The notes below the pieces were generated by a model. That model had not been told where the DNA came from. It saw only the letters and a program-made list of their open reading frames with translations, and ran no database searches. 64,000 nucleotides of DNA, from contig CAZRLN010000003.1 of assembly GCA_964601085.1 (NCBI GenBank), positions 28,192 to 92,191 of the forward strand, given 5' to 3'. The translations under genes were made by a program, and so were the position numbers. The DNA comes from an uncultured Veillonellaceae bacterium. GTDB lineage: Bacteria; Bacillota; Negativicutes; UBA1444. Shown piece after piece: positions 5,158 through 22,425 of the stretch; within the stretch, counting starts at the first letter, position 1; each line of letters starts with the position of its first letter.

Positions 5158-5205
5158 AAAATGCAAGAGATCGTTGCGCGTCAACATTCTCTTGCATTTT
5201 TATTT
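5158..5205. terminator. Bidirectional rho-independent terminator hairpin between the binding-protein gene and the GGDEF gene
   Basis: aaaaatgcaagaga...tctcttgcattttt inverted repeat flanked by A/T runs. Confidence 0.5.
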
Positions 5206-9544: not shown

Positions 9545-10018
9545 ATGGCTAAGAGCACTGTGGAGGGCAAAATGAAAATAACTAAAATTGAAGATAATGA
9601 CTATATAAATTTCCTAGAACTGCTGCTCCTTGCCGATGAAGACCTAAAAATGATAGAGAAATATTTATATCGCGGCGAAATGTTTGCATTATATGATGAT
9701 AATTTAAAAAGTGTTTGCGTAGTTACGCACGAAAGCGATGATGTTTGTGAACTAAAAAATATCGCCACTTATGAAAAATGGCAGGGCAAAGGGTATGGAA
9801 GTAAACTTTTAAACCACATATTTTCGCATTACAAGGGCAAGTATACCACAATGCTTGTGGGAACCGGCGACATCTCATGGATAATAGAGTTTTACCAGAA
9901 AAATGGTTTTAGGCTCTCCCACAGGATTCATAACTTTTTTACCGACAACTACGGTCAGCCAATGTTTGAAGAGGGTGTTCAGTTGGTTGATATGGTTTAT
10001 CTACGTAAAATCTTATGA
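9545..10018 (+). CDS. GNAT family N-acetyltransferase
   Basis: 157 aa with the acetyl-CoA-binding signature [10 protein letters not shown]. Embedded in an AT-rich stretch (9400-10080) unlike its neighbours. Confidence 0.75.
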
Positions 10019-10037
10019 GCCAACCCTTCCCATGCAT

Positions 10038-10060
10038 AGCAAAAAGCCCGCGAAATTCGC
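10038..10060. terminator. Palindromic terminator aagcccgcgaaattcgcgggctt
   Basis: Hairpin followed by a T-rich tract. Sister copy of the 8027-8050 hairpin. Confidence 0.5.
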
Positions 10061-10086
10061 GGGCTTTCATCGTGTGTGGATTTGAA

Positions 10087-10101
10087 TGGTGGAGGCGAGG
10101 G
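10087..10101. repeat. 15-nt direct repeat identical to the tmRNA gene 3' terminus (tggtggaggcgaggg), att-like
   Basis: Exact match to 21969-21983, the acceptor/CCA end of ssrA. Confidence 0.55.
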
Positions 10102-10211
10102 ATGCATATTTACAACCACAACCAAAAGAATTACGCTGTATGAACTGTATGGCAGCGGCAAAAGAGGGCGCTTCCGGGAGCTGCCGGACTAGTAGGGCCG
10201 GTATGAAACAG

Positions 10212-10601
10212 TCAAGGCTGCGGTATTCGGGCAGAGACAAAGTCCGCTATCCGTCGGGCGCATTGTATGGCGGTGGAAACATCGACTTCGGTCAGATCCA
10301 GTTGAAACGGATAACGAGCCTGAACTCCATAATCCGTTAGCTCAAGACAGTCTTCTGCAATCAAGGAAAATGCTGGATCGTTTGTGCTACAGCTTTTGTT
10401 CAGCGCGGTCAGATCGTGGGTCTTGGCGATGCCGATTCCGTGCAATGCTAAAAATGCCTTCAGATACTTTTCTGCGCTCTGCTGGCAATGGTAACAAACG
10501 ATTTCCAAGGGTTTCGGCTTCATGGCAAGAAGATATTCTGCGGATGCAAGGTCCTGCTCTGCATATCGTTGCCATTCCCGGGCGACGGTGCTATTGTTCA
10601 T
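10212..10601 (-). CDS. HEPN-domain protein (toxin of a HEPN/MNT pair)
   Basis: ~130 aa; start ATGAACAATAGC overlaps the stop of the upstream MNT gene. HEPN-like helical protein located directly after the MNT partner. Confidence 0.65.
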   Translation of the reverse strand: MNNSTVAREWQRYAEQDLASAEYLLAMKPKPLEIVCYHCQQSAEKYLKAFLALHGIGIAKTHDLTALNKSCSTNDPAFSLIAEDCLELTDYGVQARYPFQLDLTEVDVSTAIQCARRIADFVSARIPQP

Positions 10602-10962
10602 AGAGCACCAAGCCGTCGGCAACAATTCTGTGTTCCATCGTAGAGGGTAGGACGGAGCGGAGTGCGAAGTCGGCATCGTCATAAACGAGCAGATCGACAG
10701 GCAGGTTGACCTCTGAACTCATAGCCCGGCGCATTAAGCGAAGGGCTTCAATTTTTCTCATTCCACCCAGAGCGGTCACGACACACAGATCAATATCGCT
10801 ATCCGGAGTTGCAGATCCAGAAGCTTGTGAGCCGAACAAGTAGATTTTATGGGGTTGCATGCTCTGGGTGATGGCACGCACAGCATTGTTGATTTCCATT
10901 TGAACTGCAGCGTTCATCAGGGGCGACCTCCTTTGCATTAATGATCGACAATATATTATCAT
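10591..10962 (-). CDS. Nucleotidyltransferase (MNT) antitoxin-type protein
   Basis: LFGSQASGSATPDSDIDLCVV is a pol-beta-type NTase motif (GS...DxD). Confidence 0.8.
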   Translation of the reverse strand: MIIYCRSLMQRRSPLMNAAVQMEINNAVRAITQSMQPHKIYLFGSQASGSATPDSDIDLCVVTALGGMRKIEALRLMRRAMSSEVNLPVDLLVYDDADFALRSVLPSTMEHRIVADGLVLYEQ

Positions 10963-11060
10963 TATAGCATAGGCCCAAGCATGTCAAGGGTCCATATCGG
11001 CGGCTCATCCAATAAAGAAAAAAAGTCTTACCAATAAAGGTAAAACTTTCTTCAAAAAAA

Positions 11061-11072
11061 TGGTGGAGGCGA
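11061..11072. repeat. 12-nt direct repeat matching the tmRNA 3' terminus (tggtggaggcga), second att-like remnant
   Basis: Matches 21969-21980. Lies 31 nt beyond the stop of the PP2C-sensor gene. Confidence 0.45.
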
Positions 11073-11102
11073 TGATTCCGTGTAAGCTGCCTCCGGCCAT
11101 TC

Positions 11103-13046
11103 CTACAGAGGCCGGAAGGCCACCATCGTCATGTCGTCCCGCCGCCGCTCGTCGCCGCGGTAGGTCTCCAGATAGTCGCAGACTGCCGTCAACTGATCAT
11201 CGAGTGGCTTGGCGGCATTTTGCACGACCACTTCCGCCAAGCGCTTTCGTCCGAGCAGTTGCCGTCTGGCCCCGCCCATATGATCTGGCGCGCCGTCGGT
11301 AAACAAATAGAACGCCATGCCGGGAACTACTGCTAGCACGTGTTCGGCAAACGCAGCCTCGGAGCGGATGCTGCCGTAACCGAGGATGGACCGGGTCGCC
11401 TTGATCTCGCGAATAGCGCCCTCCTGCATCAACAGCAGGGGAATCCCGGCGCCGGAGTAGGTCAGCGAGGCCGCCTGCGGATCGTAGATGCAGATGGCCG
11501 CCTCCAGTCCGTCGTCCGACTGGCAGTCGGAGCAATCCTGGCGCAGGCGGGTCCGGACTGCGGCATCAATTGCCTCCAGCATCGCTGCCGGTTCGAGCGG
11601 CCGGCATTCCCGGATGATCCGTTCAAGAGCGGTCGACAGCACGGTGGTCAGCAGCGCGCCAGGCACCCCATGTCCAGTACAGTCCGCCACCACGACCACG
11701 CAGCGGCCCTCGATCTGCTGCAGCCAGTAATAATCGCCGCCGACCACCTGCAGCGGCTCCCAGCGGACTGCGATATCAGCCACCGAACCTTGTAGCGCTT
11801 GCGGGTCCGGCAGCAGCGATTCCTGAATCCGGCGGGCGTAGCGGATACTTTCCAGCACCAACTGATTCGACCGTTCCAGTTTAGCATGGGTAACGCTGAG
11901 TTCATCATGGGTGGCAGTCAGTTCTTCGAGGGTCATCTCCACCTTGTTTTTCTCATGGTCTAGCGCCAGCAATGTCTTGCCGAGCCGACGATTGGCACGG
12001 GCCACGAAGACTGTCGCGCCGGCCAGCACCAACACCAACAGCACCGACAGCAGCAGCACCGGCCAGTACCTTTTCAGTACATCCTGCAGACTGAACTTAC
12101 CCATATCGCGATACGGTCCCAGCTTCAGTTCACGGTACAAATCATGCACCGGCGTATAGTCTCCCGGAATAGTCCAACCGGCACTTTTCGCCGCCCTGGC
12201 TGCCGCACTGCCTGCCGGCATGTTCAACAACGCCGCCGCCACCTGATGTGCCAGTTTGTCCTCAGTATGCCGCAGTTTGGCGAAGGGCCATTCCGGATAA
12301 AGTCGGGTGCTGGCCCGATAGGGAAAGTTCCCGATGCTATTCGCGGCGACATCGCTGCGCAAGCGGAGATCGTTGATGATTTTTATCTGCAGCAGATCCA
12401 GTTTTCCATCCTGCGCCATCCGTTCCAAGATATCGGTCCGGACCAGTCCCACATCGGCCTCACCCCGCAGCACCGACCGCACCGCCGCAGGATGCGTGCC
12501 GCTGAACTTCAGTTCGGCAAAATCCGCCGGATCGAGGCCCGCCGCCGTGAATTCCCGCAGATGCACCAGCCAGCCGCCAAAAGAAGTCTGGTCGACCGCC
12601 GCCACCCGCCGTCCGCGCAGATCCTGGAGCGTATTGATCTTCTTATTTTCGGCGCGGGTGAAGACAACGCCGCCGAACTTGGCAAAATCCCCGTCCGGAC
12701 CGCTGGAGTTGATCGTTGCCAGCCGGGTAAGGCCGTACAGCACTTCCATCTCCACATACTGACCGGTGTTGGCGATCACAAAGTCGACATTTCCGGCGGC
12801 AACTGCCGGATACAGAGTTGCAAAATCGAGTACTTCGATCACAAAACGTTTTTTTAGAGTCTGCCCCAGATATTCGGCCAACGGGCTCCAGGTTACCAAG
12901 GCTGCCTCTTTTCCGCTATTACCCAGAACACCGATCTTGATTGGCTGTTCGTTTTGCGCCGCAGCAACGCCGCTCCAGCAGACCAGGCAAAGCAGTATTA
13001 ACGCCAACAAAAGCGCCGTCGGTCCCGTGCCCCGCCGCCGGCTCAT
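11103..13046 (-). CDS. SiaA-like sensor phosphatase: periplasmic PhnD/SsuA-type solute-binding domain, TM helix, coiled coil, PP2C (SpoIIE/RsbU) Ser/Thr phosphatase domain
   Basis: Signal peptide/TM; then KIGVLGNSG...VDFVIANTGQYV, a phosphonate-binding-like fold; second TM (YWPVLLLSVLLVLVLAG). C-terminal GGDYYWL...VVVADCTGHGVPGALLTTV is a PP2C signature. Confidence 0.75.
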   Translation of the reverse strand: MSRRRGTGPTALLLALILLCLVCWSGVAAAQNEQPIKIGVLGNSGKEAALVTWSPLAEYLGQTLKKRFVIEVLDFATLYPAVAAGNVDFVIANTGQYVEMEVLYGLTRLATINSSGPDGDFAKFGGVVFTRAENKKINTLQDLRGRRVAAVDQTSFGGWLVHLREFTAAGLDPADFAELKFSGTHPAAVRSVLRGEADVGLVRTDILERMAQDGKLDLLQIKIINDLRLRSDVAANSIGNFPYRASTRLYPEWPFAKLRHTEDKLAHQVAAALLNMPAGSAAARAAKSAGWTIPGDYTPVHDLYRELKLGPYRDMGKFSLQDVLKRYWPVLLLSVLLVLVLAGATVFVARANRRLGKTLLALDHEKNKVEMTLEELTATHDELSVTHAKLERSNQLVLESIRYARRIQESLLPDPQALQGSVADIAVRWEPLQVVGGDYYWLQQIEGRCVVVVADCTGHGVPGALLTTVLSTALERIIRECRPLEPAAMLEAIDAAVRTRLRQDCSDCQSDDGLEAAICIYDPQAASLTYSGAGIPLLLMQEGAIREIKATRSILGYGSIRSEAAFAEHVLAVVPGMAFYLFTDGAPDHMGGARRQLLGRKRLAEVVVQNAAKPLDDQLTAVCDYLETYRGDERRRDDMTMVAFRPL

Positions 13047-13855
13047 CCACCCACCTCGCTACTCTCCACCCGGTTTCGTCCGTTTTGTTTCGCCGCATAC
13101 ATCGCCTCATCCGCCCGGGCCAACATCGCGTCAAACCCTTCGCGCGCCCTTGCGGCGACTACGCCGATACTGACGGTGACGAAAAAAGCTCCCTCTGGGC
13201 CCGAAATCGGGCAGGCTTCCATCGCGGCACGCACCCTTTCGGCTACTTCCAATGCCTCGGCCAGTCCAGTGTCCGGCAGCAACACGCCAAACTCCTCGCC
13301 CCCCAGCCGCCCCAGGCTGTCGGCCAACCGGATCTGTCCGCTGCAAACCTGGGCGAAACAGCGCAGAGCCTCGTCGCCGGCAGCATGCCCATATCGGTCG
13401 TTGACCGCCTTGAACCGGTCCAAATCCATCATCAGCAAAGAAAGCACGTGACTGCCGCGCTCAAGCTTGGCCGATTCATACTGGCCGAGCTCATAAAACT
13501 TCCGTCGGTTAAAAACGCCGGTCAGGGCGTCCGTCGTCGCCATCCGCCGCAGCTCATTCTCCAGCTTTTTCCGCGCTTCGATCTCGACCTCCAGCGCCTG
13601 GTTCAAAGTCTGCAACTGGACTGTCTTTTCCTGCAATTCCCGGGTGACCTGGCGCAACTGCTCCTGCTGGCGATCACTGACCCGCAACAGTCGCTGTTGC
13701 TCTCGGAAACTTTTCCGGTACGACGTGACCAGGCCATGCAGATTTTCCAATACTTCCTCGCCGGAACGGCTGCAAAAATCCTGTTTGAGAGCCTCGACCA
13801 GAGACTCCGCCTGCTCCACGACCTGTTCTTCGTTAAAATACAGGCTGTGCTTCAT
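13043..13855 (-). CDS. Diguanylate cyclase (GGDEF), SiaD-like, with N-terminal coiled coil
   Basis: GGEEF active site plus RxxD-like region; no sensory domain. Start overlaps the stop of the upstream gene. Confidence 0.8.
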   Translation of the reverse strand: MKHSLYFNEEQVVEQAESLVEALKQDFCSRSGEEVLENLHGLVTSYRKSFREQQRLLRVSDRQQEQLRQVTRELQEKTVQLQTLNQALEVEIEARKKLENELRRMATTDALTGVFNRRKFYELGQYESAKLERGSHVLSLLMMDLDRFKAVNDRYGHAAGDEALRCFAQVCSGQIRLADSLGRLGGEEFGVLLPDTGLAEALEVAERVRAAMEACPISGPEGAFFVTVSIGVVAARAREGFDAMLARADEAMYAAKQNGRNRVESSEVGG

Positions 13856-14238
13856 GGCGCCAGTTTGATGGACTCAAATTCCACCGCTTTCAGGTCTTCT
13901 GAAAAATCTTCGCCAGATTCCTCAATGGTGTCGTCCCCGTCCTGAAAATACCAATGAACCCGGATCTTCGACCCAGTTTCTGCTGCCGATTCGAGCAGCT
14001 GGAAGATATTCATTAGCGCTTTGGCGCTGCTGCTGTTGAAATACGCCAGACGGAAATCCACCTGCAGTGGCTCTTCAGGTTCCTGTTCGACGATGCTTTG
14101 CATCTCTTGGAGAATCGGCCCCCAAAAAGCGGCGGCGTCTTCCGGGTACGCCTCACCGGTAAAAGAAATAGTTCTGTTCGCGACATCCAGCCGCACTTCC
14201 GGCGAACGGTCTGTGGCTGCGATCGTTCTCGATTCCAT
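13852..14238 (-). CDS. DUF1987 / SiaC-like partner-switch phosphoprotein
   Basis: ~128 aa after trimming to the RBS-supported start (MESRTIAAT...). AYFNSSSAKALMNIF resembles the DUF1987 core around the phospho-Thr/Ser site. Acidic C-terminus. Confidence 0.6.
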   Translation of the reverse strand: MESRTIAATDRSPEVRLDVANRTISFTGEAYPEDAAAFWGPILQEMQSIVEQEPEEPLQVDFRLAYFNSSSAKALMNIFQLLESAAETGSKIRVHWYFQDGDDTIEESGEDFSEDLKAVEFESIKLAP

Positions 14239-14249
14239 CTTCTGCCCCC

Positions 14250-14831
14250 CTATATGTAGGCTTTGATACAAAAGAAAGTCTTTTGCTCATCAAGGATCAT
14301 GAAGTCAAATTCAATAGGACTGCTGGACCTACGGGCAATTTCCAGCAATCCTATGCTCGCGCCCTTGCTCTCGGCTTCCGGCGGCTCCTTCAACTTTTCC
14401 TTGTAATAGGCCTTGATGCCTTCTTTATCCAAACTCTGGATCAGCTCCAGGCGTGACCTCAGCTTCACCGCATCCTGCATCGACACCGTATTGCCGCAGA
14501 CCACAAAGAACTGCCCGCCGTCGCTGCCGACAGAGATTACGCCGGAGCTGATCTCCGGTTTCTTCTCTCCATCCGTTTTACCTGCACCCTCCTTCAACCG
14601 CTCCGAAGAATAGCGGATGATGTTTTGCACTTGTTCGACAAAAATGGAGAACACTTTCTTTGTCGTGTTCAAGTCGGTTTCTTCACTGGCCAGCTTCTGC
14701 TTCAACACATCTCCCATCGAAAACAGCAGCCCTTCCGAGATATAGCCGGCAAAGCTAAAAAAAATCTGCTTATCCTTGAGATCCTGCTCAAAGCGATAAT
14801 ATTCGGTTGCTATCATAGGGGTTCCCTCCAT
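14250..14831 (-). CDS. SiaB-like GHKL-type Ser/Thr kinase (anti-sigma-factor RsbW/SpoIIAB-like ATPase fold)
   Basis: N-box-like EQVQNIIRYS, G1-like VGSDGG, G2-like GASIGLLEIARR. 193 aa, first gene of the four-gene unit. Confidence 0.5.
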   Translation of the reverse strand: MEGTPMIATEYYRFEQDLKDKQIFFSFAGYISEGLLFSMGDVLKQKLASEETDLNTTKKVFSIFVEQVQNIIRYSSERLKEGAGKTDGEKKPEISSGVISVGSDGGQFFVVCGNTVSMQDAVKLRSRLELIQSLDKEGIKAYYKEKLKEPPEAESKGASIGLLEIARRSSSPIEFDFMILDEQKTFFCIKAYI

Positions 14832-14908
14832 CGTTGTTAAATCGTTGTTGAATCAGCTAATTCTATTCATTTCGGCAATTGGCGAAAATATTCCTGCTGC
14901 TGCTATTA

Positions 14909-15982
14909 TCACGGAGTAGCTGAACGCTGATTCGCAAAGGACGGAAACGGATGTTCAATAGCTCCCATCCGCCAGGCGGCGGGAATCACTACCAGATGCT
15001 GCCTGACCTGAGCGAGTCTGCGCAGCAGCCTAAGAACCTGCGTGTTGCTAAACTGCACAGAACGCCGTTGTTTGGCAAAATGGAGCGATATTGGCGCGCC
15101 TTGTAGCCATTTTGCTTGCGCCGCAACAATCCCACCTTCCACTTCGACAGCTTTGAGCAGATTCAGGATGTCCGCTTTGGTTCGCCGTTGCAGCTGATCA
15201 TTTCGGTTGATTTGTGACGCCGCCTTGCGGTAGGAAACATATCCAAAGGAACCAAAGATGCGGCGGGACTGACGGGCCAGTTCGTCATGACCGATGCATG
15301 GAGTGGTCATGAAATGTTGCAGGCTTCGGTCCGGAAAGCCATGTTTTCGTGCAAGACTGGACAGCCTGCCCTTTTTGCATTGCACTTCCAGCCGTAGTAG
15401 TGTATCTGCCTGTTGATAGATTTCTTCATCCAGTCCTGTGAATCGGGATCGTAGTGCTGGACCACGGTGATACAACTGGACTGAACCACTCTTGTTGCCT
15501 GCCTTAAAACTGATCCAGCCTGCTTGGGACTGATTATTGGCACCGACAGGCAGATAGCCGCGCCGCGCCAAATCAATATAGCGGTCAGCTGAAGGACGGG
15601 CTGGTGAATTGCCGACGCAGGCATCGGAAGCATAATCGATTCTGCAAGCCAGCCAATATGGCAGCGATGGAAGCTCTACGTTAGTGATGGTGCGCAATAG
15701 TTCGTCGAATTCGGGGATAAGTTCCGCGAAGTCTGCAGGATTAAACAGCGCCATGGGATCTGCAGATTGACTCATGACGTGGAGCGGGTTCATGGCAATT
15801 CGAATAAAGTGACCGGTAAAACGTTGCGTGGTAATATGGTAGAGCGATATTCTGGTCAAGCCGGATGAAGAATAGTCGTTTGTGCTCCATGATGCGTGAT
15901 CAGGCGGCGCGCCTAGTTCCCGCTGGAGTTCTTCGTATGTAAAAGAAGTCAGTTGTGTGCTGACATCGGTCGTATGAATCAA
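14909..15982 (-). CDS. Hypothetical protein, possibly a replication-initiation protein of the island
   Basis: 357 aa, basic C-terminal half, no recognisable enzyme motif. Divergent from an AT-rich 760-bp non-coding region. Confidence 0.35.
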   Translation of the reverse strand: MIHTTDVSTQLTSFTYEELQRELGAPPDHASWSTNDYSSSGLTRISLYHITTQRFTGHFIRIAMNPLHVMSQSADPMALFNPADFAELIPEFDELLRTITNVELPSLPYWLACRIDYASDACVGNSPARPSADRYIDLARRGYLPVGANNQSQAGWISFKAGNKSGSVQLYHRGPALRSRFTGLDEEIYQQADTLLRLEVQCKKGRLSSLARKHGFPDRSLQHFMTTPCIGHDELARQSRRIFGSFGYVSYRKAASQINRNDQLQRRTKADILNLLKAVEVEGGIVAAQAKWLQGAPISLHFAKQRRSVQFSNTQVLRLLRRLAQVRQHLVVIPAAWRMGAIEHPFPSFANQRSATP

Positions 15983-16415
15983 GACAAAAGCCCCCTGTTT
16001 GTCATCTTCTATAATCGATATAATAGCATATATTTAAAGGATTAAACAATGTTTTTATACTCAAAAATAGAAACAGTGCTATAGCTTCACTCTTTTTTAC
16101 TTCAAATGATGTTCTATATAACTGGACATGTTCCGAGTTCCTGTTTGGAAAGTGAACTGAACCGGATGCGGCTATGGGACATATATATAGTTACTGCCAT
16201 AATCCGCGCTTTTCAAGAGGTAATGGCTTAGCGACAATAAAGCAAACGCGATGCAACCTGCTGCGATATGCGTTGTTGTCATCTTCCTCGACTTTTAGAG
16301 GCGCGAATTAGTGTTAAAACCTGCCGAAATGGCCCGTTTTCTCGTTATTCAATAACTGTATATTATTTTCCTGTATAAACCTATTGCTTTCGTGAAATTT
16401 CATTTTCAATCCGTA

Positions 16416-16445
16416 AAACGCCCTATAGGCGTTATTTTTTTTGCA
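16416..16445 (+). terminator. Perfect palindrome aacgccctataggcgtt followed by a T8 run, inside the AT-rich intergenic region
   Basis: Stem-loop plus U-tract in + orientation with no annotated upstream gene. Confidence 0.4.
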
Positions 16446-16746
16446 ATATTTCCCGCCCGGAAATAGGTTAGACACTGGTTAGTGCTACTAGGGGAAAACG
16501 GCCCTGGGTATCCAGTTGAAGAAGGAAATAGGGATGGGTGTCATCTTCGCTGCCGGCCAGTCGGCAGTGGCAATGAAAATGAAGGAGGGAACCGGCAGAT
16601 GCATTGTAAAGTTAGAAAAACACAGAGGTCGCGATCACCGCCGTCAAAGGAGGCACGGCAACTCAAGATTGAGCCTGTTTCGTTCAAACAAGGACGGATC
16701 AGGCTCTTTTTTATTTTTTAAGCAAAAGCAAAAGGAGCGATTCAAG

Positions 16747-17589
16747 ATGGAAAAAGATCTCGTAAAAACAGCGATTCAAAATTTGCTTGACCAGTTCGCC
16801 CAGCAGGATTTCCCGGCTGAAATAGGTTGGCAGATTATCCGAAGACGGTCTGGCCTGCATGCTGTGCCTTCAGATTCCTGGAGTCCCGGCAACCGTTGGA
16901 TCATGCTGGCTTGCGGTACGACGGATGCAAGAGGCTTCGGTCAGTGGCATCAGGTAGGCAGAAGGGTCAAGTCCGGTAGCAAGTCGCTTTACATTTCCGC
17001 ACCAAACACCAGAAAGATCAGTTCAGATGACGAAGACGACCCGGAAACGGCAAGGACAATCGTGACCGGATTTCGCTGGATTCCTGTGTTTCGGATTGAA
17101 GATACATCCGGGCATCCAGTCTGTACTGCCGACTACACACCTCAGATATTGCCGCCTTTGTTTGATGTGGCTGCAAAGCTTGGCGCTTCAGTGAAGTGGC
17201 AACCGTTTGACGGCAAGGCGCTAGGGCGATACAGACCATCCAGCAAAGAAATCGTTTTGTCGGATCAGACGGCGCTGACTTATTATCACGAAATCATGCA
17301 CCATTTGGATTCACAGATTGAACCGATCCGACCCGGGCGCTTAGCGGAAGCAGAAATGATTGCCGAATTCGGCGGATCGGTCCTTTGCTCGATTCAGGGA
17401 ATTTCCGGCTACGAATCCGGCAGCTACCGCTACCTGCAATCCTATGCGGTCGGAAAAGAGCCGGAAGCAGTTCTTCGCGGCATCATGGCGATTGCTGCCA
17501 GGGTGGAAAAGTTGGTCGGAATCGTACTGGACGCAGCGGAACGACCTGTAGGAAGAGCAGAAACATTACCGACTTCGATCTCAGCATAA
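16747..17589 (+). CDS. ArdC-like antirestriction protein (N-terminal ssDNA-binding DUF1738-like domain plus C-terminal zincin HExxH metallopeptidase)
   Basis: N-domain pattern GNRWIMLACGTTDARGFGQWHQVGRRVKSGSKSLYI resembles ArdC. C-terminal YYHEIMHHLD is an HExxH motif. Start set at MEKDLVK; the track ORF begins upstream at 16516. Confidence 0.5.
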   Translation: MEKDLVKTAIQNLLDQFAQQDFPAEIGWQIIRRRSGLHAVPSDSWSPGNRWIMLACGTTDARGFGQWHQVGRRVKSGSKSLYISAPNTRKISSDDEDDPETARTIVTGFRWIPVFRIEDTSGHPVCTADYTPQILPPLFDVAAKLGASVKWQPFDGKALGRYRPSSKEIVLSDQTALTYYHEIMHHLDSQIEPIRPGRLAEAEMIAEFGGSVLCSIQGISGYESGSYRYLQSYAVGKEPEAVLRGIMAIAARVEKLVGIVLDAAERPVGRAETLPTSISA

Positions 17590-17618
17590 GCAGATAAAAA
17601 GAGAGGGAGGCAAAATCC

Positions 17619-18059
17619 ATGAAATACATTCCTCGTTACGACATCCGGCTCATCCGCGACGGCAGAATCTCCGTCAATGCCACGCCGATCGTGCGGACGC
17701 CGCAGGATACGCTGCCTGTATTGGAGCCTGAGTTGTCCGAACTCGCCTATGAAAAATTCGTTGCTCTGGCGCTTTCGACGAAAAATCATGTTATCGCCGT
17801 CCTGCCTGTCAGCAGTGGCAGCTTGAATGCGTCCGTCGTGCACCCGCGCGAAGTGTTTCAACGAGCCATTCTGGCCAACTGTGCCAGCCTGATTTTGGCG
17901 CACAACCATCCGTCAGGCGATCCATCGCCAAGTCCAGAAGACATTGCTCTGACCCGCAAGTTGATCGACGCAGGTCGGTTTCTGGATATTCCTGTGATCG
18001 ATCACATTGTGCTTGGCTACGGTCGGTATGTCAGTTTCAAAGAATGCGGTCTATTATGA
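17619..18059 (+). CDS. RadC-like JAB/MPN-domain protein (DUF2466)
   Basis: LILAHNHPSGDPSPSPEDIALTRKL is the canonical RadC motif; RBS GAGGGAGG. Confidence 0.85.
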   Translation: MKYIPRYDIRLIRDGRISVNATPIVRTPQDTLPVLEPELSELAYEKFVALALSTKNHVIAVLPVSSGSLNASVVHPREVFQRAILANCASLILAHNHPSGDPSPSPEDIALTRKLIDAGRFLDIPVIDHIVLGYGRYVSFKECGLL

Positions 18060-18070
18060 AGGAGGAGAAG

Positions 18071-19036
18071 ATGATCATGTTAAACAGCAAAGTAATCGTT
18101 CCAGACATCGACAAACTATCCTATAAAGATTGGCTTCAGGTTCGTCGGAGCGGCATCGGCGGATCAGACGCAGCGGCGGCGCTGGGACTTTCGACATGGA
18201 AATCCGCATTGGAAATTTGGCAAGAGAAGGTTTCGGGCCAAAGCCAGCCAAGTCAGGAAAACGAATCGATGATCTGGGGCCGGATTATGGAGCCGATCAT
18301 CACCAGGGAGTTTATCCGGCGCACAGGAAAAAACATCAAGCCCATGCGATCAATGCTGCAGGCAACAAACTGGCCTTGGATGCTGGCCGATCTCGATGGG
18401 CTGATTGAAGACCCGCAGCGTGGAATAGGAGTCTTCGAAGTCAAGACGGCATCGGCTTTCAAACAGGGCGAATGGGCCGAAGATCGTTGCCCGGATGCTT
18501 ACATGCTGCAACTAGCTCATTATATGGCGGTTACAGGTCTATCCTATGCAGTGATCTGTGTTCTGATCGGCGGCAACAAGCTGCAATGGATCACTGTGGA
18601 CAGGGATGAAGAACTCATTACCAGCTTGGTTCAGTTGGAAAAGCGTTTCTGGCAATATGTTCTGATTCAGACACCACCGCCCGTGGACGGCAGCGTGGCT
18701 TGCGCAGAACTGCTGTCTCGCAAGTATCCGTTGTCATCCAATGCCGCGCCGATGATCCTGCCTATGGACGCGGACAGCTGGATACAGGAGTACCTGCAGG
18801 CAAAGGCGGAGGAGGAAACCGCTGTTGAACGCAAACGGTTGGCCGAAAACCGGATAAAGGAGGTGATGAAAGAGCATGAAAAAGCAACCAGTCCAAGCGG
18901 CAGGCAGGCCAATTGGAAAACGGTTCAGTCCACCCGGATTGATTCGGCGAGGCTGAAAAAAGAAGAACCGGCGCTGTTCGAGAAGTTCTCTACAACTTCA
19001 TCGACGCGCCGGTTTTCCATTTCCGAATGCAAATAG
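18071..19036 (+). CDS. YqaJ-like viral recombinase-domain exonuclease (lambda Exo / PD-(D/E)xK family)
   Basis: SYKDWLQVRRSGIGGSDAAAALGLSTWKSALEIWQEK is the YqaJ N-terminal signature; start after AGGAGG. Confidence 0.75.
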   Translation: MIMLNSKVIVPDIDKLSYKDWLQVRRSGIGGSDAAAALGLSTWKSALEIWQEKVSGQSQPSQENESMIWGRIMEPIITREFIRRTGKNIKPMRSMLQATNWPWMLADLDGLIEDPQRGIGVFEVKTASAFKQGEWAEDRCPDAYMLQLAHYMAVTGLSYAVICVLIGGNKLQWITVDRDEELITSLVQLEKRFWQYVLIQTPPPVDGSVACAELLSRKYPLSSNAAPMILPMDADSWIQEYLQAKAEEETAVERKRLAENRIKEVMKEHEKATSPSGRQANWKTVQSTRIDSARLKKEEPALFEKFSTTSSTRRFSISECK

Positions 19037-19104
19037 CTTCACAAATATTATATCAAATTGCAAAGGAGGATGGGCGGCTTTGATCATAGGCCGCCCAAAT
19101 TTTT

Positions 19105-19620
19105 ATGTTGAACAACGCAAAATTGAAAGACACTCTGTCGCAAATAATGACAGCCAAAACAGCCGAACCTATTCAACTTCATCCAATGGCGGCTGCAGAA
19201 CGGACTGGTACCGAGTTGACCTTACCGTCGCTGACGGTCGTTCTGTCTTTCTCGCTATCGTTTGACGAGGCTCAATCCCAGATGAAACGAATACAGGAGA
19301 TGGTCAGAGACTTGGGGATTCAACCAACTATTCAGCATCAACCTGCACCGGCGCTAGCAGGTCTGCCACAGGCGGCATCAAAACCGGGATCATTGGCAAC
19401 AAGTGCTCCGGTGCGTATTCAGACTCCATTTAAGCATGCCGCGTCGCCTGCGCCGATGACAGACAAACAGAAGAGAATGATTTTCGCGTTGACTGCAAAA
19501 AAGGCGTTGGAGGCAGAACAAGTTGAAGAATTATTAATAAAACAAGTCGGACATAAGCGCGGCAGCGATCTGACCAAAACGGAAGCAAGTTCGCTCATCA
19601 GCACGCTACTCGCCATGTAA
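19105..19620 (+). CDS. Hypothetical protein; candidate annealing/accessory protein partner of YqaJ
   Basis: 171 aa, Pro/Ala-rich linker, conserved-looking C-terminal helical segment. No motif recognised. Confidence 0.35.
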   Translation: MLNNAKLKDTLSQIMTAKTAEPIQLHPMAAAERTGTELTLPSLTVVLSFSLSFDEAQSQMKRIQEMVRDLGIQPTIQHQPAPALAGLPQAASKPGSLATSAPVRIQTPFKHAASPAPMTDKQKRMIFALTAKKALEAEQVEELLIKQVGHKRGSDLTKTEASSLISTLLAM

Positions 19621-19726
19621 AGAACTTTACCTTGTCCTGCCGAGCAATTACGACTAAAAGTAAAATGGTTTGACATAGTGATTGGTGTTGTGATATGCTT
19701 GGCAGGACAGAAGGAGGTGAAAGGCT

Positions 19727-20131
19727 ATGGGCAATACCCCGGGAAAAAGAGATGATGCGATGTTACGATCCCTGCAGCAAAACTTGCCAGTCATTCGCAA
19801 GGCGGCGAAACTGAGTCAAAAGGATCTGGCATCGACGCTGGGCGTATCTCGCCAGACGGTTAACAACTGGGAAACCGAGAAGACTTTCCTGAATCCAACG
19901 CAGGGATTGGCCCTTATGGCAATAATCCAGTCATTCAGCAGTGTTTATCCCGGCGTGAAAAAAATCGCCGAAGCTTTTTTTGAACTGCAGGATGATGCAA
20001 TGGTGAAAGCCGCTAAGTTACGGAGCCCGCTGGAAGGAATAATCGCTATGTATATCGCAGGACGAATTGCCGCGAATCCAAAAGAGGACGATCACGACGA
20101 AGAAGACAAGGAAGAATTGTCAGTAGGCTAA
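19727..20131 (+). CDS. XRE-family helix-turn-helix transcriptional regulator
   Basis: LSQKDLASTLGVSRQTVNNWE is an HTH_3 motif; strong RBS AGGAGGTGA. Confidence 0.75.
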   Translation: MGNTPGKRDDAMLRSLQQNLPVIRKAAKLSQKDLASTLGVSRQTVNNWETEKTFLNPTQGLALMAIIQSFSSVYPGVKKIAEAFFELQDDAMVKAAKLRSPLEGIIAMYIAGRIAANPKEDDHDEEDKEELSVG

Positions 20132-20155
20132 TCGCAGAACGATTCAAAGGAGAGA

Positions 20156-20455
20156 TTGTATTTGGTATCAGAGACATCGTCGCAGCAACATATCAACGAC
20201 AAGGAAGCACAGATCAATAAAGCGACCAAGGATTCAGGAAGTACTGTTTGTGTCGCCGTATCCATCGAACGGCTGGATCTTCGGGCAAAGAATTATGCCA
20301 AGCAAGAAAAGGTGTTCATGGTGGCTGATGATTGTGGCGAAACAGCAGCAAGTTGCAGAGTTGGATTGGAGCCGTATGTGAACCTGTTGGCTCGGATATG
20401 TGAAAATGGGCTGGCAGAGGCTGAGTCTTCCGGGAAGGAGATGTTCGTATCGTGA
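20156..20455 (+). CDS. Hypothetical small protein, overlaps the recombinase start by 4 nt
   Basis: 99 aa; GTGA start/stop overlap with the downstream recombinase gene. Confidence 0.3.
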   Translation: MYLVSETSSQQHINDKEAQINKATKDSGSTVCVAVSIERLDLRAKNYAKQEKVFMVADDCGETAASCRVGLEPYVNLLARICENGLAEAESSGKEMFVS

Positions 20456-22041
20456 GCAACACGACTGCTGTCATCTATGCAAGGTTTTCGTCCGATAACC
20501 AGCGCGAGGAGTCGATTGATGGCCAAGTCCGTGCCTGCCGTAACTTTGCCAATCAGCACGGATATAATATTATCGAAATCTATGCCGACCACGCCAAAAC
20601 CGGAACAAATGATAGGCGCCCTGAATTTCAGCGCATGATTCAGGATGCGAAGGCCAAAAAGTTTGCAGTTCTGCTCGTCCACAAGTTCGACCGATTTAGC
20701 CGTGATAAATGTGATTCAGCCCTTTACAAGCGCGAGTTGAAGCGAGCAGGGGCTCGCATCATTAGTGTTTGTGAACCTTTAGGCGATTCGCCGTCTGATG
20801 CATTAATGGAAACCGTGATTGAAGGCGTTGCTCAGTTTTTTTCGGAGAATTTGTCGTTGGAAGTTATGAAGGGTATGCTAGAAAACGCTCACAAATGCAT
20901 GCATACTGGAGGTAAACCACCGCTCGGCTACGATGTCGATCCGGCGACAAAAAAATATGTCATCAATCAACGTGAGGCAGAAGCTGTCACGTTGATTTTC
21001 ACTCGGTATTTGTCAGGCGCTGGGTATGATGCTATCATTCGTGAGCTTAATGCCTCGAATTATAGGACAAAGCTTGGTAAGGTCTTTGGAAAAAACTCGA
21101 TCCATGATATTCTGGCAAATGAAAAATATACGGGAACTTACATTTTTAACAGGGCAGCGGCAAAAGATGCCGACGGCAAACGCAATAACCGGCGGGCAAA
21201 GTCGGTGGAGTCAATCATGCGGATTCCGGGCGGGATGCCAACTATTATTGATCAAGAAAAGTTTGAAGAGGTCCAGAAAAAAGTCGCTGGCAACAAACGC
21301 CTTCCCGGTAGCTATACAGCTAAAGAAAACTATTTATTGAGCGGCCTTGTTGTTTGTGGTGAATGCTTGAAGAACGGATTATCACACACGATGGTAGGGA
21401 ACCGGGTATTTTCCGGCAGAAATAAGAGGCTCTATGTGACATATAGGTGTTCGAACAAAGATAGAACCAACTCCTGCATTAACCGTGACGTTCGAAAAGA
21501 ATATCTAGAAGACTATGTGATCCATTCTCTTACAGACGTCTTTTTTGACGAAGGAACGATTTCCTCTGTAGTCGCAAGCGTTAACCAACGTATTGCCAGT
21601 TCGTGCGACCAGCTGAATTGTCAGTTGGAAACTGCCAAGCTTGAACAAATCGATGTTTTGAAGCAGATGGACCATATTGTTGATGCCATTGCCAATGGCT
21701 TCAAGCATGAAACGATGCTGAAAAAGTTCACTTCGCTTGAACAAGCGAAAGCGATGGTAGACGCAAGAATTAAAGAGATCGCAGAAAAACAGCAACAAAA
21801 AACTGTCTCAGAAGCTGATCTGAAACAGTTAGTCATTGCTGCAAAGTCGCAGCTAATGTGGTTGAGTGGACCGGAGCTGAAGGACTTCATCAAGGCATAC
21901 GTCAAGAGGATAGTCGCATACCAAGAAAAAATAGTAGTCGAGTTTCAGTTTCCGGTTGTGGTTTTGAGTGGTGGAGGCGAGGGGAATCGAACCCCTGTCC
22001 AAAAGCATCGCCACATGGCTTTCTCCGAGCGCAGTCGGTAA
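20452..22041 (+). CDS. Large serine recombinase (resolvase/invertase catalytic domain, recombinase domain, zinc ribbon, coiled coil)
   Basis: N-terminus AVIYARFSSDNQREESIDGQ carries the catalytic Ser; Cys-rich ribbon (CGEC...C...C). The last ~24 codons are encoded by the 3' end of the tmRNA gene. Confidence 0.85.
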   Translation: MSNTTAVIYARFSSDNQREESIDGQVRACRNFANQHGYNIIEIYADHAKTGTNDRRPEFQRMIQDAKAKKFAVLLVHKFDRFSRDKCDSALYKRELKRAGARIISVCEPLGDSPSDALMETVIEGVAQFFSENLSLEVMKGMLENAHKCMHTGGKPPLGYDVDPATKKYVINQREAEAVTLIFTRYLSGAGYDAIIRELNASNYRTKLGKVFGKNSIHDILANEKYTGTYIFNRAAAKDADGKRNNRRAKSVESIMRIPGGMPTIIDQEKFEEVQKKVAGNKRLPGSYTAKENYLLSGLVVCGECLKNGLSHTMVGNRVFSGRNKRLYVTYRCSNKDRTNSCINRDVRKEYLEDYVIHSLTDVFFDEGTISSVVASVNQRIASSCDQLNCQLETAKLEQIDVLKQMDHIVDAIANGFKHETMLKKFTSLEQAKAMVDARIKEIAEKQQQKTVSEADLKQLVIAAKSQLMWLSGPELKDFIKAYVKRIVAYQEKIVVEFQFPVVVLSGGGEGNRTPVQKHRHMAFSERSR

Positions 22042-22317: not shown

Positions 22318-22425
22318 CGTATAGGGTCGTAGGTTGGCAAAAACGAATCGCAACATGTTTACAAAATTATTATAGCATAGCTGACGCCGAAGGAGAAGGG
22401 GAGGTGTGGAGCACATTTGCCAGAG

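What the first reader, a model, noticed from the sequence alone, without database searches (positions are those of the whole stretch)
11103..14831. SiaABCD-like partner-switch c-di-GMP module carried as island cargo, with a PhnD/SsuA-type periplasmic sensor on the PP2C phosphatase
Four translationally coupled genes with 4-nt overlaps, in order: a GHKL/RsbW-like kinase (193 aa); a DUF1987-like protein with a FNSSSAK phospho-site-like motif; a GGEEF diguanylate cyclase with only a coiled coil; and a membrane PP2C phosphatase.

This matches the Pseudomonas SiaA phosphatase / SiaB kinase / SiaC switch / SiaD cyclase logic. Here the gene order is BCDA and the host is Gram-positive-like.

The phosphatase input domain is a solute-binding fold of the phosphonate/sulfonate/bicarbonate-binding class. 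This implies a small-molecule ligand gates c-di-GMP synthesis.

Its location on a mobile island next to a toxin-antitoxin pair and anti-restriction genes is unusual.
Basis: partly seen in the sequence, partly recalled or inferred. Interest (0 to 1): 0.75.

Follow-up and report, generated by a model that had tools for sequence, protein, structure and literature searches.

The report
Mobile Sia-type c-di-GMP switch operon
A small mobile DNA island in a Veillonellaceae-like bacterium carries a complete four-gene kinase/phosphatase switch that turns on synthesis of the biofilm signal c-di-GMP. Its membrane phosphatase carries a periplasmic ligand-binding sensor whose relatives sit next to thiosulfate-oxidation genes.

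Summary
Window 11103-14831 (minus strand) encodes SiaB-, SiaC-, SiaD- and SiaA-like proteins, in that order. All catalytic motifs are intact, and so is the phospho-site (S69, equivalent to P. aeruginosa SiaC T68).

Corrections:
- Only two of the three gene junctions are ATGA overlaps.
- SiaB probably starts at 14816, giving 188 aa.
- The host is a Negativicutes/Veillonellaceae-like organism. It is a Firmicute by descent but has two membranes, so the sensor is truly periplasmic.
- The BCDA gene order and the PhnD-fold-plus-PP2C architecture recur in other phyla.
- c-di-GMP genes on mobile elements are already well documented.

New findings:
- The operon is cargo of an 11.9-kb serine-integrase island at ssrA. 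The island is 99.6-99.96% identical in unrelated flanks, so transfer was recent.
- The sensor belongs to a large TtrS-like family, about 50% identical whatever the output domain.
- Five independent kinase versions of that family lie beside sox/TsdA/rhodanese genes. This makes thiosulfate-type sulfur oxyanions the best ligand candidate, by inference only.
- The closest sister operon carries a PilJ-type sensor instead, swapped exactly at TM2.

Verdict: a new variant of a known kind, of moderate interest.

The parts
14250..14816 (-). siaB-like gene: GHKL-fold Ser/Thr protein kinase, 188 aa (the longest ORF runs to 14831, 193 aa). It carries catalytic E61 and N65 and the G-box SKGASIGLLEIARR.
   Evidence: Pfam DUF6272 E 4.8e-43. 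NCBIfam SiaB_fam_kinase 198.9 bits, above the cut-off of 85. PDB 6KKO_A E 3.7e-20. AF2 model pLDDT 89.4; Foldseek gives 6kko TM 0.86-0.89, then SpoIIAB and RsbW. RBS GGAGGG lies before the ATG at 14816.
13852..14238 (-). siaC-like gene: 128-aa switch phosphoprotein of the DUF1987/SiaC family. The predicted phospho-site is S69, in FNSSS (14026-14040).
   Evidence: Pfam SiaC E 1.5e-39. PDB 6KKO_C/6K4F E 2.6e-16, with S69 aligned to T68 of LLYLNTSSIK. The N-[ST]-x-S motif is kept in 30 of 32 homologues, and FNSSS is the commonest form.
13043..13855 (-). siaD-like gene: 270-aa diguanylate cyclase. It has an N-terminal helical stalk and no sensor domain, with GGEEF (13289-13303) and an RLAD I-site (13319-13330).
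   Evidence: Pfam GGDEF E 1.3e-42. The NCBIfam SiaD equivalog is the best hit, 182 bits over model 13-252, below the cut-off of 290.
13652..13690 (-). SiaD stalk motif LLRVSDRQQEQLR (residues 56-68), the putative SiaC docking site.
   Evidence: It matches the P. aeruginosa SiaD contact residues V78/I81/S82/D83/R84/Q86/R90 described in PMC8457831. It is the only stalk motif conserved across nine SiaD-like proteins.
11103..13046 (-). siaA-like gene: 647-aa membrane PP2C phosphatase with a periplasmic sensor.
   Evidence: Pfam Phosphonate-bd plus SpoIIE. PDB 6K4E E 4.6e-37. AF2 model pLDDT 78.7. Foldseek results.
12102..12941 (-). Periplasmic PhnD-fold (type II binding-protein) sensor domain, residues 36-315. 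Family-invariant motifs are TSFGGW (151-159) and STRLYPEWP (246-254).
   Evidence: Foldseek matches PtxB, HtxB, ArrX, PhnD, AioX and XAC2383 at TM 0.7-0.84. The NCBIfam TtrS model matches residues 36-375 at E 2.7e-43. The domain is 44-63% identical to sensors fused to other outputs.
11994..12065 (-). Second transmembrane helix (residues 328-351). The first hydrophobic helix or signal anchor is residues 10-31 (12954-13019).
   Evidence: Helices in the AF2 model and hydrophobic sequence. The sensor swap in sister operon L111 begins at residue 331.
11814..11921 (-). Long linker helix (residues 376-411) joining TM2 to the PP2C domain. No HAMP domain is detected.
   Evidence: AF2 secondary structure. 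No HAMP hit in Pfam. The coiled-coil linker control of PPM phosphatases is described in PMC12143880.
11106..11813 (-). PP2C/SpoIIE phosphatase domain (residues 412-647). Metal-binding motifs are present: D438, D455-x-x-GHG, TD584G and D637/D638.
   Evidence: 6k4e TM 0.91, rmsd 2.2. Invariant columns are and motif positions.
11018..11053 (-). 15-bp hairpin with a T-run, a likely terminator of the operon.
   Evidence: Terminator scan and the sequence itself.
21957..21983 (.). Island/chromosome junction inside the 3' end of ssrA (tmRNA gene 21969-22318, minus strand).
   Evidence: Direct repeat D2. tmRNA found by ARAGORN and Rfam. Similarity to other contexts ends at 21976.
10075..10101 (.). Distal copy of the ssrA 3'-end repeat, marking the far end of the 11.9-kb island.
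   Evidence: 27-nt repeat, 93% identical. Similarity to other contexts ends at 10031-10038.
11059..11072 (.). Third, internal copy of the ssrA 3' end (TGGTGGAGGCGA), directly downstream of siaA.
   Evidence: I estimate about 1e-4 exact 14-nt matches expected by chance in 12 kb.
20452..22041 (+). Large serine recombinase, the island's integrase.
   Evidence: Pfam Resolvase, Recombinase and Zn_ribbon_recom. PHROG integrase E 1.3e-114.
10212..10962 (-). HEPN / MNT-type nucleotidyltransferase pair with its own TTGACA-17-TATAAT promoter. It lies between the internal and distal att copies.
   Evidence: Pfam HEPN E 1.8e-26 and NTP_transf_2 E 1.2e-11. Promoter.
14909..15982 (-). 357-aa protein of unknown family, same strand, ending 92 nt upstream of the preferred siaB start (14816) and 77 nt upstream of the longest-ORF start (14831). 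It travels with the island.
   Evidence: No hit in Pfam, NCBIfam, PHROGs or PADLOC. It is present in every copy of the island seen.

Best explanation
This is a functional Sia-type partner-switch operon, in the order siaB-siaC-siaD-siaA, that sets c-di-GMP synthesis.

Proposed mechanism:
1. SiaB, a GHKL-fold kinase, phosphorylates SiaC on S69.
2. Phospho-SiaC cannot bind the cyclase.
3. The membrane phosphatase SiaA removes that phosphate.
4. Free SiaC docks on the SDRxQ motif of the SiaD stalk and stabilises the active cyclase dimer.
5. c-di-GMP rises until the RxxD I-site gives product inhibition.

The input differs from the Pseudomonas prototype. SiaA carries a periplasmic Venus-flytrap (PhnD-fold) domain between two membrane helices. 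This domain would pass ligand occupancy through TM2 and a long linker helix to the PP2C dimer. The most likely ligand is a small oxyanion of the thiosulfate/tetrathionate type.

The operon is cargo of an 11.9-kb serine-integrase island inserted in ssrA. The island is moving between Veillonellaceae-like (two-membrane Firmicute) hosts, and it plugs into their existing c-di-GMP network.

What is shown here: the gene content, folds, motifs, island borders and recent transfer. What is inferred from the P. aeruginosa work or from context: the reaction steps, the direction of ligand control and the ligand's identity.
For: Family assignments:
- SiaB family above the curated cut-off.
- SiaC Pfam 134.8 bits against a cut-off of 24.5.
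- SiaA-PP2C crystal match E 4.6e-37 and TM 0.91. The next PP2C, RssB, reaches only E 1.9e-8.
- SiaB model matches crystal SiaB and then SpoIIAB/RsbW.

Residues:
- S69 aligns to the phosphorylated T68.
- SiaB keeps E61 and N65, invariant in 28 homologues.
- PP2C metal ligands are invariant in 23 homologues.
- GGEEF, RxxD and the SDRxQ stalk motif are present.

Operon structure:
- Two ATGA overlaps, an RBS-spaced third junction and a terminator hairpin.

Conservation:
- The same BCDA operon with a PhnD-type SiaA occurs at 51-57% identity in other genomes.

Sensor:
- PBP fold.
- Flanked by hydrophobic helices.
- About 50% identical to sensors on kinases, cyclases and HD-GYP proteins, with about 55 shared near-invariant residues.
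- Five independent kinase versions lie beside soxB, soxYZAX, a TsdA-like cytochrome or rhodanese.
- PhnD-like sensors are thought to sense tetrathionate in TtrS and have been validated as thiosulfate and tetrathionate sensors in Shewanella ThsS/TtrS (PMC5408782).

Island:
- att repeats.
- 99.6-99.96% identity inside the island against unrelated or 84%-identical flanks.

Host:
- The host already has a GGDEF protein at 5200-6342.
Against: - There is no biochemical or expression evidence for any step in this organism.
- The curated 'equivalog' models for SiaA, SiaB, SiaC and SiaD are all below their cut-offs, so these are not orthologues of the Pseudomonas proteins.
- Only one SiaC-binding stalk motif is recognisable, whereas P. 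aeruginosa SiaD has two. The stoichiometry and activation details may therefore differ.
- No c-di-GMP receptor or riboswitch was found on the island or in the 64-kb window.
- The ligand inference rests on the gene neighbourhood of homologues that are only 41-52% identical.
- One cyclase-fused homologue (Sulfuricaulis) has no sulfur genes nearby.
- The S-T-S oxyanion motif of PtxB is replaced by S-F-G, so the pocket chemistry is uncertain.
- In P. aeruginosa the SiaA input appears to be membrane perturbation rather than a ligand (PMC12834913).
Confidence: 0.8

Rival explanations
1. The wiring is the same, but the sensor binds a phosphorus oxyanion (phosphonate, phosphite or hypophosphite) or another anion such as arsenate, as the fold's transport relatives do. 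It would not bind a sulfur oxyanion.
For: The closest solved structures are PtxB, HtxB, PhnD, ArrX and AioX. Pfam assigns the domain to Phosphonate-bd.
Against: The PhnD and phosphate/phosphonate SBP models score only 66-85 bits, well below their cut-offs, while the TtrS sensor region scores 148 bits. The PtxB S-T-S motif is not conserved. No phn, ptx or ABC transporter genes are nearby. Kinase-fused homologues sit beside sox/TsdA/rhodanese genes, not phosphorus genes.
Confidence: 0.15
2. The periplasmic domain binds no free ligand. SiaA would report envelope or membrane stress, as proposed for P. aeruginosa SiaA, or would dock a partner protein.
For: The P. aeruginosa Sia input maps to the membrane-spanning N-terminal region and to membrane perturbation (PMC12834913). 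No ligand has been shown for this sensor family.
Against: The domain is a complete two-lobe binding-protein fold modelled at pLDDT 80-94. About 55 residues are near-invariant whatever the output domain, which fits a conserved pocket. Related PhnD-like sensors are validated small-molecule sensors.
Confidence: 0.1
3. The module serves the island rather than host behaviour. It might couple a signal to island transfer or maintenance, or act with the neighbouring HEPN/MNT pair as an anti-phage system. SiaC might have a target other than SiaD.
For: The operon is always linked to the island genes. SiaABC modules occur with non-cyclase outputs, for example a PAS-histidine kinase in Methanospirillum, and many loci have SiaABC without a GGDEF gene. 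Plasmid-borne GGDEF proteins are reported to raise conjugation rates.
Against: The four proteins have no PADLOC defence-model hits beyond a weak coiled-coil match. The island has no conjugation genes. The HEPN/MNT pair has its own promoter and is separated from siaA by a terminator and an att remnant. SiaD keeps the SiaC-docking motif. Chromosomal, non-island relatives keep the same four-gene operon.
Confidence: 0.07
4. The operon is an inert passenger that is not expressed, or is decaying, in these hosts.
For: Its G+C content (57.7%) is above that of the rest of the island (48.7%) and of the window (50.1%), which suggests a foreign origin.
Against: All four ORFs are intact with complete catalytic motifs. 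The identical SiaA protein is on 124 contigs. Full-length variants at 84-91% identity exist. Ribosome-binding sites and coupled junctions are preserved.
Confidence: 0.04

Closest known systems
SiaABCD partner-switch system of Pseudomonas aeruginosa (PA0172-PA0169; PDB 6K4E, 6K4F, 6KKO, 7E6G)
   Same: It has the same four protein families and the same inferred logic: PP2C phosphatase, GHKL-like kinase, DUF1987 phosphoprotein and a stalked GGDEF cyclase. The phospho-site position, kinase E61/N65, PP2C metal ligands, the SDRxQ stalk motif, GGEEF and the I-site are all conserved.
   Different: - The gene order is BCDA, not ABCD.
- SiaA has a periplasmic PhnD-fold sensor and no HAMP domain, whereas the Pseudomonas protein has two TM helices plus HAMP.
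- The phospho-residue is Ser, not Thr.
- One recognisable SiaC-docking motif is present, not two.
- Sequence identity is only about 28-31%, and all equivalog models are below their cut-offs.
- The host is a two-membrane Firmicute.
- The operon is carried on a mobile island.
TtrS/ThsS-type sensor kinases with PhnD-like periplasmic domains (Salmonella TtrS; Shewanella ThsS/TtrS; PMC5408782)
   Same: Both have a PhnD-fold periplasmic sensor between two membrane helices. The NCBIfam TtrS model matches the sensor region at E 2.7e-43. Homologous sensor-kinases lie beside sulfur-oxyanion genes.
   Different: The output is a PP2C phosphatase feeding a partner switch, not a histidine kinase with a response regulator. 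The TtrS match (148 bits) is far below the equivalog cut-off (750). The ligand here has not been tested.
XAC2383 of Xanthomonas citri, a PhnD-like periplasmic protein (PDB 5UB3/5UB7)
   Same: A PhnD-fold periplasmic protein structurally similar to this sensor (Foldseek TM 0.71-0.73).
   Different: As I recall it, the receptor there is a separate protein acting on a membrane cyclase directly. Here the binding domain is fused to a phosphatase, and the cyclase is controlled two steps downstream through SiaC.
RsbU/RsbV/RsbW and HsbR/HsbA/HsbD-type partner switches
   Same: A PP2C phosphatase and a GHKL anti-sigma-type kinase act on one small phosphoprotein. The SiaB model matches SpoIIAB and RsbW. 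Coiled-coil linker control of PPM phosphatases is an established model (PMC12143880). HsbA and BgrV likewise activate cyclases.
   Different: The switch protein is of the DUF1987/SiaC family, not a Pfam STAS protein. No sigma factor is involved. The phosphatase is a membrane sensor.
c-di-GMP turnover genes carried on mobile elements (SXT/R391 ICEs, tLST, PAPI-1, plasmids; review PMC10333796)
   Same: A diguanylate cyclase is carried as accessory cargo of an integrative element.
   Different: Here a whole sensor-to-cyclase partner switch is mobilised, on a small non-conjugative serine-integrase island at ssrA in Negativicutes.

Membership tests
Sia partner-switch module (SiaA/B/C/D) | SiaB-family GHKL-like protein kinase | tested here: met
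   NCBIfam NF038262 198.9 bits against a cut-off of 85. PDB 6KKO_A E 3.7e-20. Model TM 0.86-0.89 to SiaB, then SpoIIAB and RsbW. E61 and N65 are invariant.
Sia partner-switch module (SiaA/B/C/D) | SiaC (DUF1987) protein with a phosphorylatable Ser/Thr at the position of T68 | tested here: met
   Pfam PF09345 134.8 bits against a cut-off of 24.5. S69 aligns to T68. The motif is conserved in 30 of 32 homologues.
Sia partner-switch module (SiaA/B/C/D) | SiaA-type PP2C phosphatase domain with metal-binding residues | tested here: met
   6K4E E 4.6e-37. TM 0.91, rmsd 2.2. D438, D455, GHG, D584, D637 and D638 are invariant.
Sia partner-switch module (SiaA/B/C/D) | GGDEF cyclase whose only N-terminal feature is a helical stalk carrying SiaC-binding motifs | tested here: inconclusive
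   GGEEF, the RxxD site and one motif (LLRVSDRQQEQLR) matching the published contact residues are present. The second motif of P. aeruginosa SiaD is not recognisable. No complex was modelled.
Sia partner-switch module (SiaA/B/C/D) | Orthology to the P. aeruginosa proteins (NCBIfam equivalog cut-offs) | tested here: not met
   SiaA 190 against 700, SiaB 109 against 225, SiaC 87 against 150, SiaD 182 against 290 bits. These are family members, not equivalogs.
Sia partner-switch module (SiaA/B/C/D) | SiaA input region of two TM helices plus HAMP, and ABCD gene order | tested here: not met
   No HAMP hit; a PhnD-fold domain takes its place. The order is BCDA. Both orders occur among relatives.
Sia partner-switch module (SiaA/B/C/D) | Kinase, phosphatase and cyclase-activation activities | not testable with these tools
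   This needs purified proteins or c-di-GMP measurement.
TtrS/ThsS-like PhnD-fold periplasmic sensor domains | Type II binding-protein fold of the Phosphonate-bd family placed between two membrane helices | tested here: met
   PF12974 E 2.2e-45. Foldseek TM about 0.8 to PtxB, HtxB and ArrX. Helices at residues 10-31 and 328-351.
TtrS/ThsS-like PhnD-fold periplasmic sensor domains | Histidine-kinase output and the TtrS equivalog score | tested here: not met
   The output is PP2C. NF040750 scores 148 bits against a cut-off of 750 and matches the sensor region only.
TtrS/ThsS-like PhnD-fold periplasmic sensor domains | Binds tetrathionate or thiosulfate | not testable with these tools
   Context only: five homologous sensor-kinase loci lie beside sox, TsdA or rhodanese genes.
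ABC-transport binding proteins PhnD/PtxB/HtxB | Free periplasmic or lipoprotein binding protein encoded with an ABC permease and ATPase, passing the family cut-offs | tested here: not met
   The domain is fused to PP2C. No ABC genes lie in the island. TIGR03431 scores 65.8 against 261 and TIGR01098 scores 84.7 against 112. The PtxB S-T-S motif is changed to S-F-G.
Integrative island at ssrA with a large serine recombinase | Recombinase gene, direct repeats derived from the tmRNA 3' end, and the same element in different flanks | tested here: met
   Identity is 99.6-99.96% over 10031-21976 with unrelated or 84%-identical flanks. A tandem arrangement with a second island is seen in L094.
Known anti-phage defence systems (PADLOC) | Match of the four proteins to a defence-system model | tested here: not met
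   No hits apart from a weak coiled-coil match of SiaD to PbeC (E 7e-5). Only the neighbouring nucleotidyltransferase hits candidate models.

The most novel reading that the evidence does not exclude
The periplasmic domain is a thiosulfate-type sulfur-oxyanion receptor. The same unrecognised sensor family would control sox genes in sulfur oxidisers through kinase fusions. The island would then spread, between species of two-membrane Firmicutes, a self-contained 'sulfur oxyanion in, c-di-GMP out' behaviour switch. This would be the first Sia system with a defined chemical input, and a ready-made transferable biofilm trigger.
Probability: 0.25. Interest if true: 0.65.

Novelty: new variant of a known kind. 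Interest (0 to 1): 0.45.

Why it matters
The signal that drives the Sia switch is still unclear in its only studied host. SDS, tellurite, carbon supply and membrane perturbation have all been proposed. A natural Sia variant whose phosphatase carries a discrete ligand-binding domain, with a concrete candidate ligand class, makes the input-to-c-di-GMP path directly testable in vitro or in E. coli.

It also gives a clear case of modular sensor exchange on PP2C phosphatases. The same sensor is found on kinases, cyclases, HD-GYP proteins and PP2C, and a sister operon has the sensor swapped exactly at TM2.

Finally, it shows that a whole sensory partner switch, not just a lone cyclase, can be moved between species by a small ssrA island. 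The sensor-kinase/sox association seen on the way may point to an undescribed regulator of thiosulfate oxidation.

Tried and rejected
- Megablast of the whole island against the plasmid and phage collections found nothing.
- Scans of IMG/VR for SiaA and for the 357-aa protein found no relatives. The island is therefore not a recognisable phage or plasmid.
It did not return the host genome and gave only one full-architecture relative, Ca. Magnetobacterium.
- Exact-sequence cluster look-ups gave no organism names. Host identity came from SecA homologues instead.
- I could not display a residue-level alignment of the SiaD stalk to PDB 7E6G. Two searches gave alignments in different registers, offset by about 33 residues, as expected for a repeated or coiled-coil motif. 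I used the published contact residues and a family alignment instead.
- The EMBO J paper on SiaB-SiaC is not held in the library.
- No empty attachment site was found in this host lineage: all eight contexts that share the GNAT flank carry the island.
- The 357-, 280-, 171- and 98-aa island proteins had no Pfam, NCBIfam or PADLOC hits; in PHROGs the 357-aa ORF containing the 280-aa protein hit phrog_7245, anti-restriction protein, E 1.7e-10.
- Rfam found no c-di-GMP riboswitch in the window.
- Literature searches found no paper describing a PhnD-fold PP2C or a thiosulfate-gated cyclase. The library does not cover subscription journals.

Full report
**What is there**

Window 11103-14831 holds four co-directional minus-strand genes. 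Profile searches identify them as follows.
- A DUF6272 protein that passes NCBIfam's curated 'SiaB family protein kinase' cut-off (198.9 bits against 85).
- A SiaC/DUF1987 protein (Pfam E 1.5e-39).
- A GGDEF protein whose first 105 residues match no domain.
- A 647-aa protein with a Phosphonate-bd domain (residues 47-291) and a SpoIIE/PP2C domain (residues 446-645).

The siaC/siaD and siaD/siaA junctions are ATGA overlaps. The siaB/siaC junction is an 11-nt spacer with a GGGGG ribosome-binding site. The siaB start that has a ribosome-binding site is at 14816, giving 188 aa rather than 193. A 15-bp hairpin with a T-run follows siaA.

All three were run and all three were passed.
1. The 128-aa protein matches DUF1987/SiaC. 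It aligns to crystal SiaC at E 2.6e-16, with S69 opposite T68, the residue shown by mass spectrometry to be phosphorylated by SiaB and dephosphorylated by SiaA. Among 32 SiaC homologues from fetched loci, 30 keep the N-[ST]-x-S motif (14 read FNSSS). Ser at this position is therefore the common state, and the Pseudomonas Thr is the minority.
2. An AlphaFold model of the kinase (pLDDT 89.4, 28-sequence alignment) matches crystal SiaB at TM 0.86-0.89. The next matches are SpoIIAB, UsfX and RsbW, followed by histidine-kinase ATP-binding domains. This is a GHKL-type fold. E61 and N65 are invariant.
3. A model of SiaA (pLDDT 78.7) places the C-terminal domain on crystal SiaA-PP2C (TM 0.91, rmsd 2.2). 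The periplasmic domain falls on PtxB, HtxB, PhnD, ArrX, AioX and XAC2383 (TM 0.7-0.84).

The PP2C metal ligands are invariant across 23 homologues. SiaD has GGEEF and an RxxD I-site five residues upstream of it. Its stalk segment LLRVSDRQQEQLR reproduces the published SiaC contact residues (V78, I81, S82, D83, R84, Q86, R90). It is the only stalk motif conserved in nine SiaD-like proteins. Only one such motif is recognisable here, whereas P. aeruginosa has two.

**Host**

Downstream of the island, the window carries eno, pgm, pgk and gap on the minus strand (32817-38709), then rnr, smpB and ssrA. SecA is 95% identical to a 'Veillonellaceae bacterium' MAG and 92-93% identical to 'Negativicutes bacterium' MAGs. 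The host is therefore a Firmicute by descent. From general knowledge, Negativicutes have an outer membrane, so the sensor domain would sit in a true periplasm. The host chromosome next to the island already encodes another GGDEF protein (5200-6342).

**Island**

- A large serine recombinase gene (20452-22041) abuts the tmRNA gene (21969-22318, minus strand).
- The tmRNA 3' end is repeated at 10075-10101, and again as a 14-nt copy at 11059-11072, directly after siaA.
- Contigs that carry the identical SiaA protein show 99.96% DNA identity over window 10031-21976 with unrelated flanks (L005, L006).
- In L008 the island is 99.6% identical while the adjacent smpB is only 84% identical.
- In L094 the island lies in tandem with a second serine-integrase element.

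This is strong evidence for recent transfer between species. The remaining cargo is a HEPN/nucleotidyltransferase pair with its own consensus promoter, an anti-restriction-like protein, RadC, a YqaJ/RecE-like exonuclease, an HTH protein and three proteins of unknown family. The sia operon has 57.7% G+C, against 48.7% for the rest of the island. No match was found in plasmid, phage or IMG/VR collections.

**How unusual is the architecture?**

- A word-indexed search found about 57 clusters (at 90% identity) with Phosphonate-bd plus SpoIIE. The names attached come from Sulfuricurvum, Magnetococcales, a Clostridia MAG and Methanospirillum.
- An exhaustive search of 1.84 billion representatives found about seven full-length clusters (at 50% identity) among the best 150. 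The remainder were almost all the same sensor fused to other outputs.
- Relatives at 51-57% identity keep the BCDA operon in ordinary chromosomal settings.
- BCDA order also occurs in Thioalkalivibrio and Methylobacterium, with other SiaA inputs. ABCD order occurs in Ca. Magnetobacterium, an Anaerovoracaceae MAG and others.
- Many loci have SiaABC without a cyclase. In Methanospirillum the module is followed by a PAS-histidine kinase.
- The closest distinct operon (L111) is 74% (SiaB), 67% (SiaC) and 61% (SiaD) identical, and 70% identical in SiaA from residue 331 onward. Its periplasmic domain, however, is PilJ-type. That is a sensor swap exactly at TM2.

**The sensor and its likely ligand**

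- Over residues 36-315 the domain is 44-63% identical to homologues. The figure is about 50% whether the partner domain is PP2C, PAS-kinase, GGDEF, GGDEF-EAL or HD-GYP.
- About 55 residues are near-invariant in both groups, and only three are PP2C-specific.
- NCBIfam's TtrS model matches the sensor region (148 bits) better than the PhnD models do (66-85 bits).
- The S-T-S oxyanion motif of PtxB aligns to S-F-G here.
- Looking up three non-PP2C homologues gave an unexpected pattern. Two kinase fusions, each with a GerE-type response regulator, sit directly beside sulfur genes: soxYZ-soxAX-soxB in one case, and a TsdA-like cytochrome with rhodanese in the other.
- A scan of all fetched loci with those proteins found soxB, soxAX or rhodanese beside three more independent sensor-kinase loci: Ca. 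Thiodiazotropha, a gammaproteobacterial MAG and Halochromatium.
- A cyclase fusion in Sulfuricaulis had no such neighbours.
- PhnD-like sensors are thought to sense tetrathionate in TtrS, and have been validated as thiosulfate and tetrathionate sensors in Shewanella (PMC5408782).

I therefore rank thiosulfate-type sulfur oxyanions above phosphonate, phosphite, sulfonate or bicarbonate as candidates. This is inference from context, not a demonstration.

**Mechanism**

By homology to the experimentally dissected P. aeruginosa system, the proposed sequence is:
1. SiaB phosphorylates SiaC-S69.
2. SiaA removes the phosphate.
3. Unphosphorylated SiaC binds the SiaD stalk and stabilises the active dimer.
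4. c-di-GMP feeds back through the I-site.

Signal entry would run from the flytrap domain through TM2 and the helix at residues 376-411 to the PP2C dimer. This agrees with the coiled-coil linker model for PPM phosphatases and with its prediction that sensor modules are exchangeable between phosphatases, kinases and cyclases (PMC12143880). Whether ligand switches the phosphatase on or off is unknown. No c-di-GMP receptor or riboswitch was found on the island or in the window, so the output must depend on host effectors.

**Comparison and novelty**

This is a member of the Sia partner-switch family in the broad sense. The SiaB-family and SiaC-family thresholds are met, and the SiaA-PP2C and SiaD features are present. 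It is not an orthologue of the Pseudomonas operon, because all four equivalog scores are below their cut-offs. It also fails the prototype's input architecture (two TM helices plus HAMP) and its gene order.

c-di-GMP genes on mobile elements are well documented (PMC10333796). The four proteins match no known defence-system model. I found no paper describing this sensor-phosphatase fusion or its ligand, though the library is incomplete.

I class the finding as a new variant of a known kind, of moderate interest. The wiring is unsurprising. What raises it above routine is a Sia system with a discrete ligand-binding input and a plausible ligand class, a cleanly documented sensor swap, and recent inter-species mobility.

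Noticed in passing
window 11059-11072, 10075-10101, 21957-21983: There are three copies of the tmRNA 3' end, not two. The internal copy sits directly after siaA, so the HEPN/MNT pair (10212-10962) lies in its own att-bounded 1-kb unit. This looks like a tandem array of two elements that now travel together in every context seen.
   Followed up: partly
window 20452-22041 versus 21969-22318; L005, L094: The 3' end of the serine recombinase ORF runs across the att junction into the tmRNA gene. The product is 529 aa here but 549 aa where the island abuts a second island. The integrase C-terminus therefore depends on what lies across the junction.
   Followed up: partly
L011, L013, L022, L099/L100, L101/L102: Sensor kinases carrying this PhnD-fold sensor plus PAS domains are paired with a GerE/NarL-type response regulator. 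They sit directly beside soxB, soxYZAX, a TsdA-like cytochrome or rhodanese in five independent loci of sulfur-oxidising bacteria. They may be an undescribed thiosulfate-responsive regulator of sox genes.
   Followed up: partly
L093 (Methanospirillum hungatei contig JAIWNS010000200.1) 1681-5790: An archaeal locus encodes a PhnD-fold SiaA, SiaB and SiaC followed by a PAS-histidine kinase instead of a cyclase. This would be a Sia-type switch with a different output, in a methanogen.
   Followed up: no
L111 3156-6433: The closest sister operon (SiaB 74% identical; SiaA cytoplasmic half 70% identical) has a PilJ-type periplasmic domain in place of the PhnD fold. The breakpoint is at the start of TM2.
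   Followed up: yes
P0480 (3279 aa), P0483, P0488, P0522: Giant proteins contain four to eight tandem copies of this same sensor domain.
   Followed up: no
window 14909-15982 (-): A 357-aa protein matches no family in Pfam, NCBIfam, PHROGs or PADLOC. It lies on the same strand as siaB, ends 92 nt upstream of the preferred siaB start at 14816 (77 nt upstream of the 14831 ORF start), and is present in every copy of the island.
   Followed up: partly
window 22426-22896 and 22913-23551 (-): Two STAS-domain (anti-sigma antagonist-like) genes lie between ssrA and smpB in this host, one of them fused to a cation-efflux dimerisation domain. In two other hosts of the island (L008, L094), no STAS gene lies on the smpB side of the element.
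   Followed up: no
window 9545-10018 (+): A GNAT acetyltransferase gene with only 36.7% G+C lies immediately outside the island border, followed by a strong hairpin at about 10043-10068. It may be a separate foreign insertion.
   Followed up: no
window 5200-6342 (-): The host chromosome encodes a 380-aa GGDEF protein about 4 kb from the island. The host therefore already uses c-di-GMP signalling.
   Followed up: no
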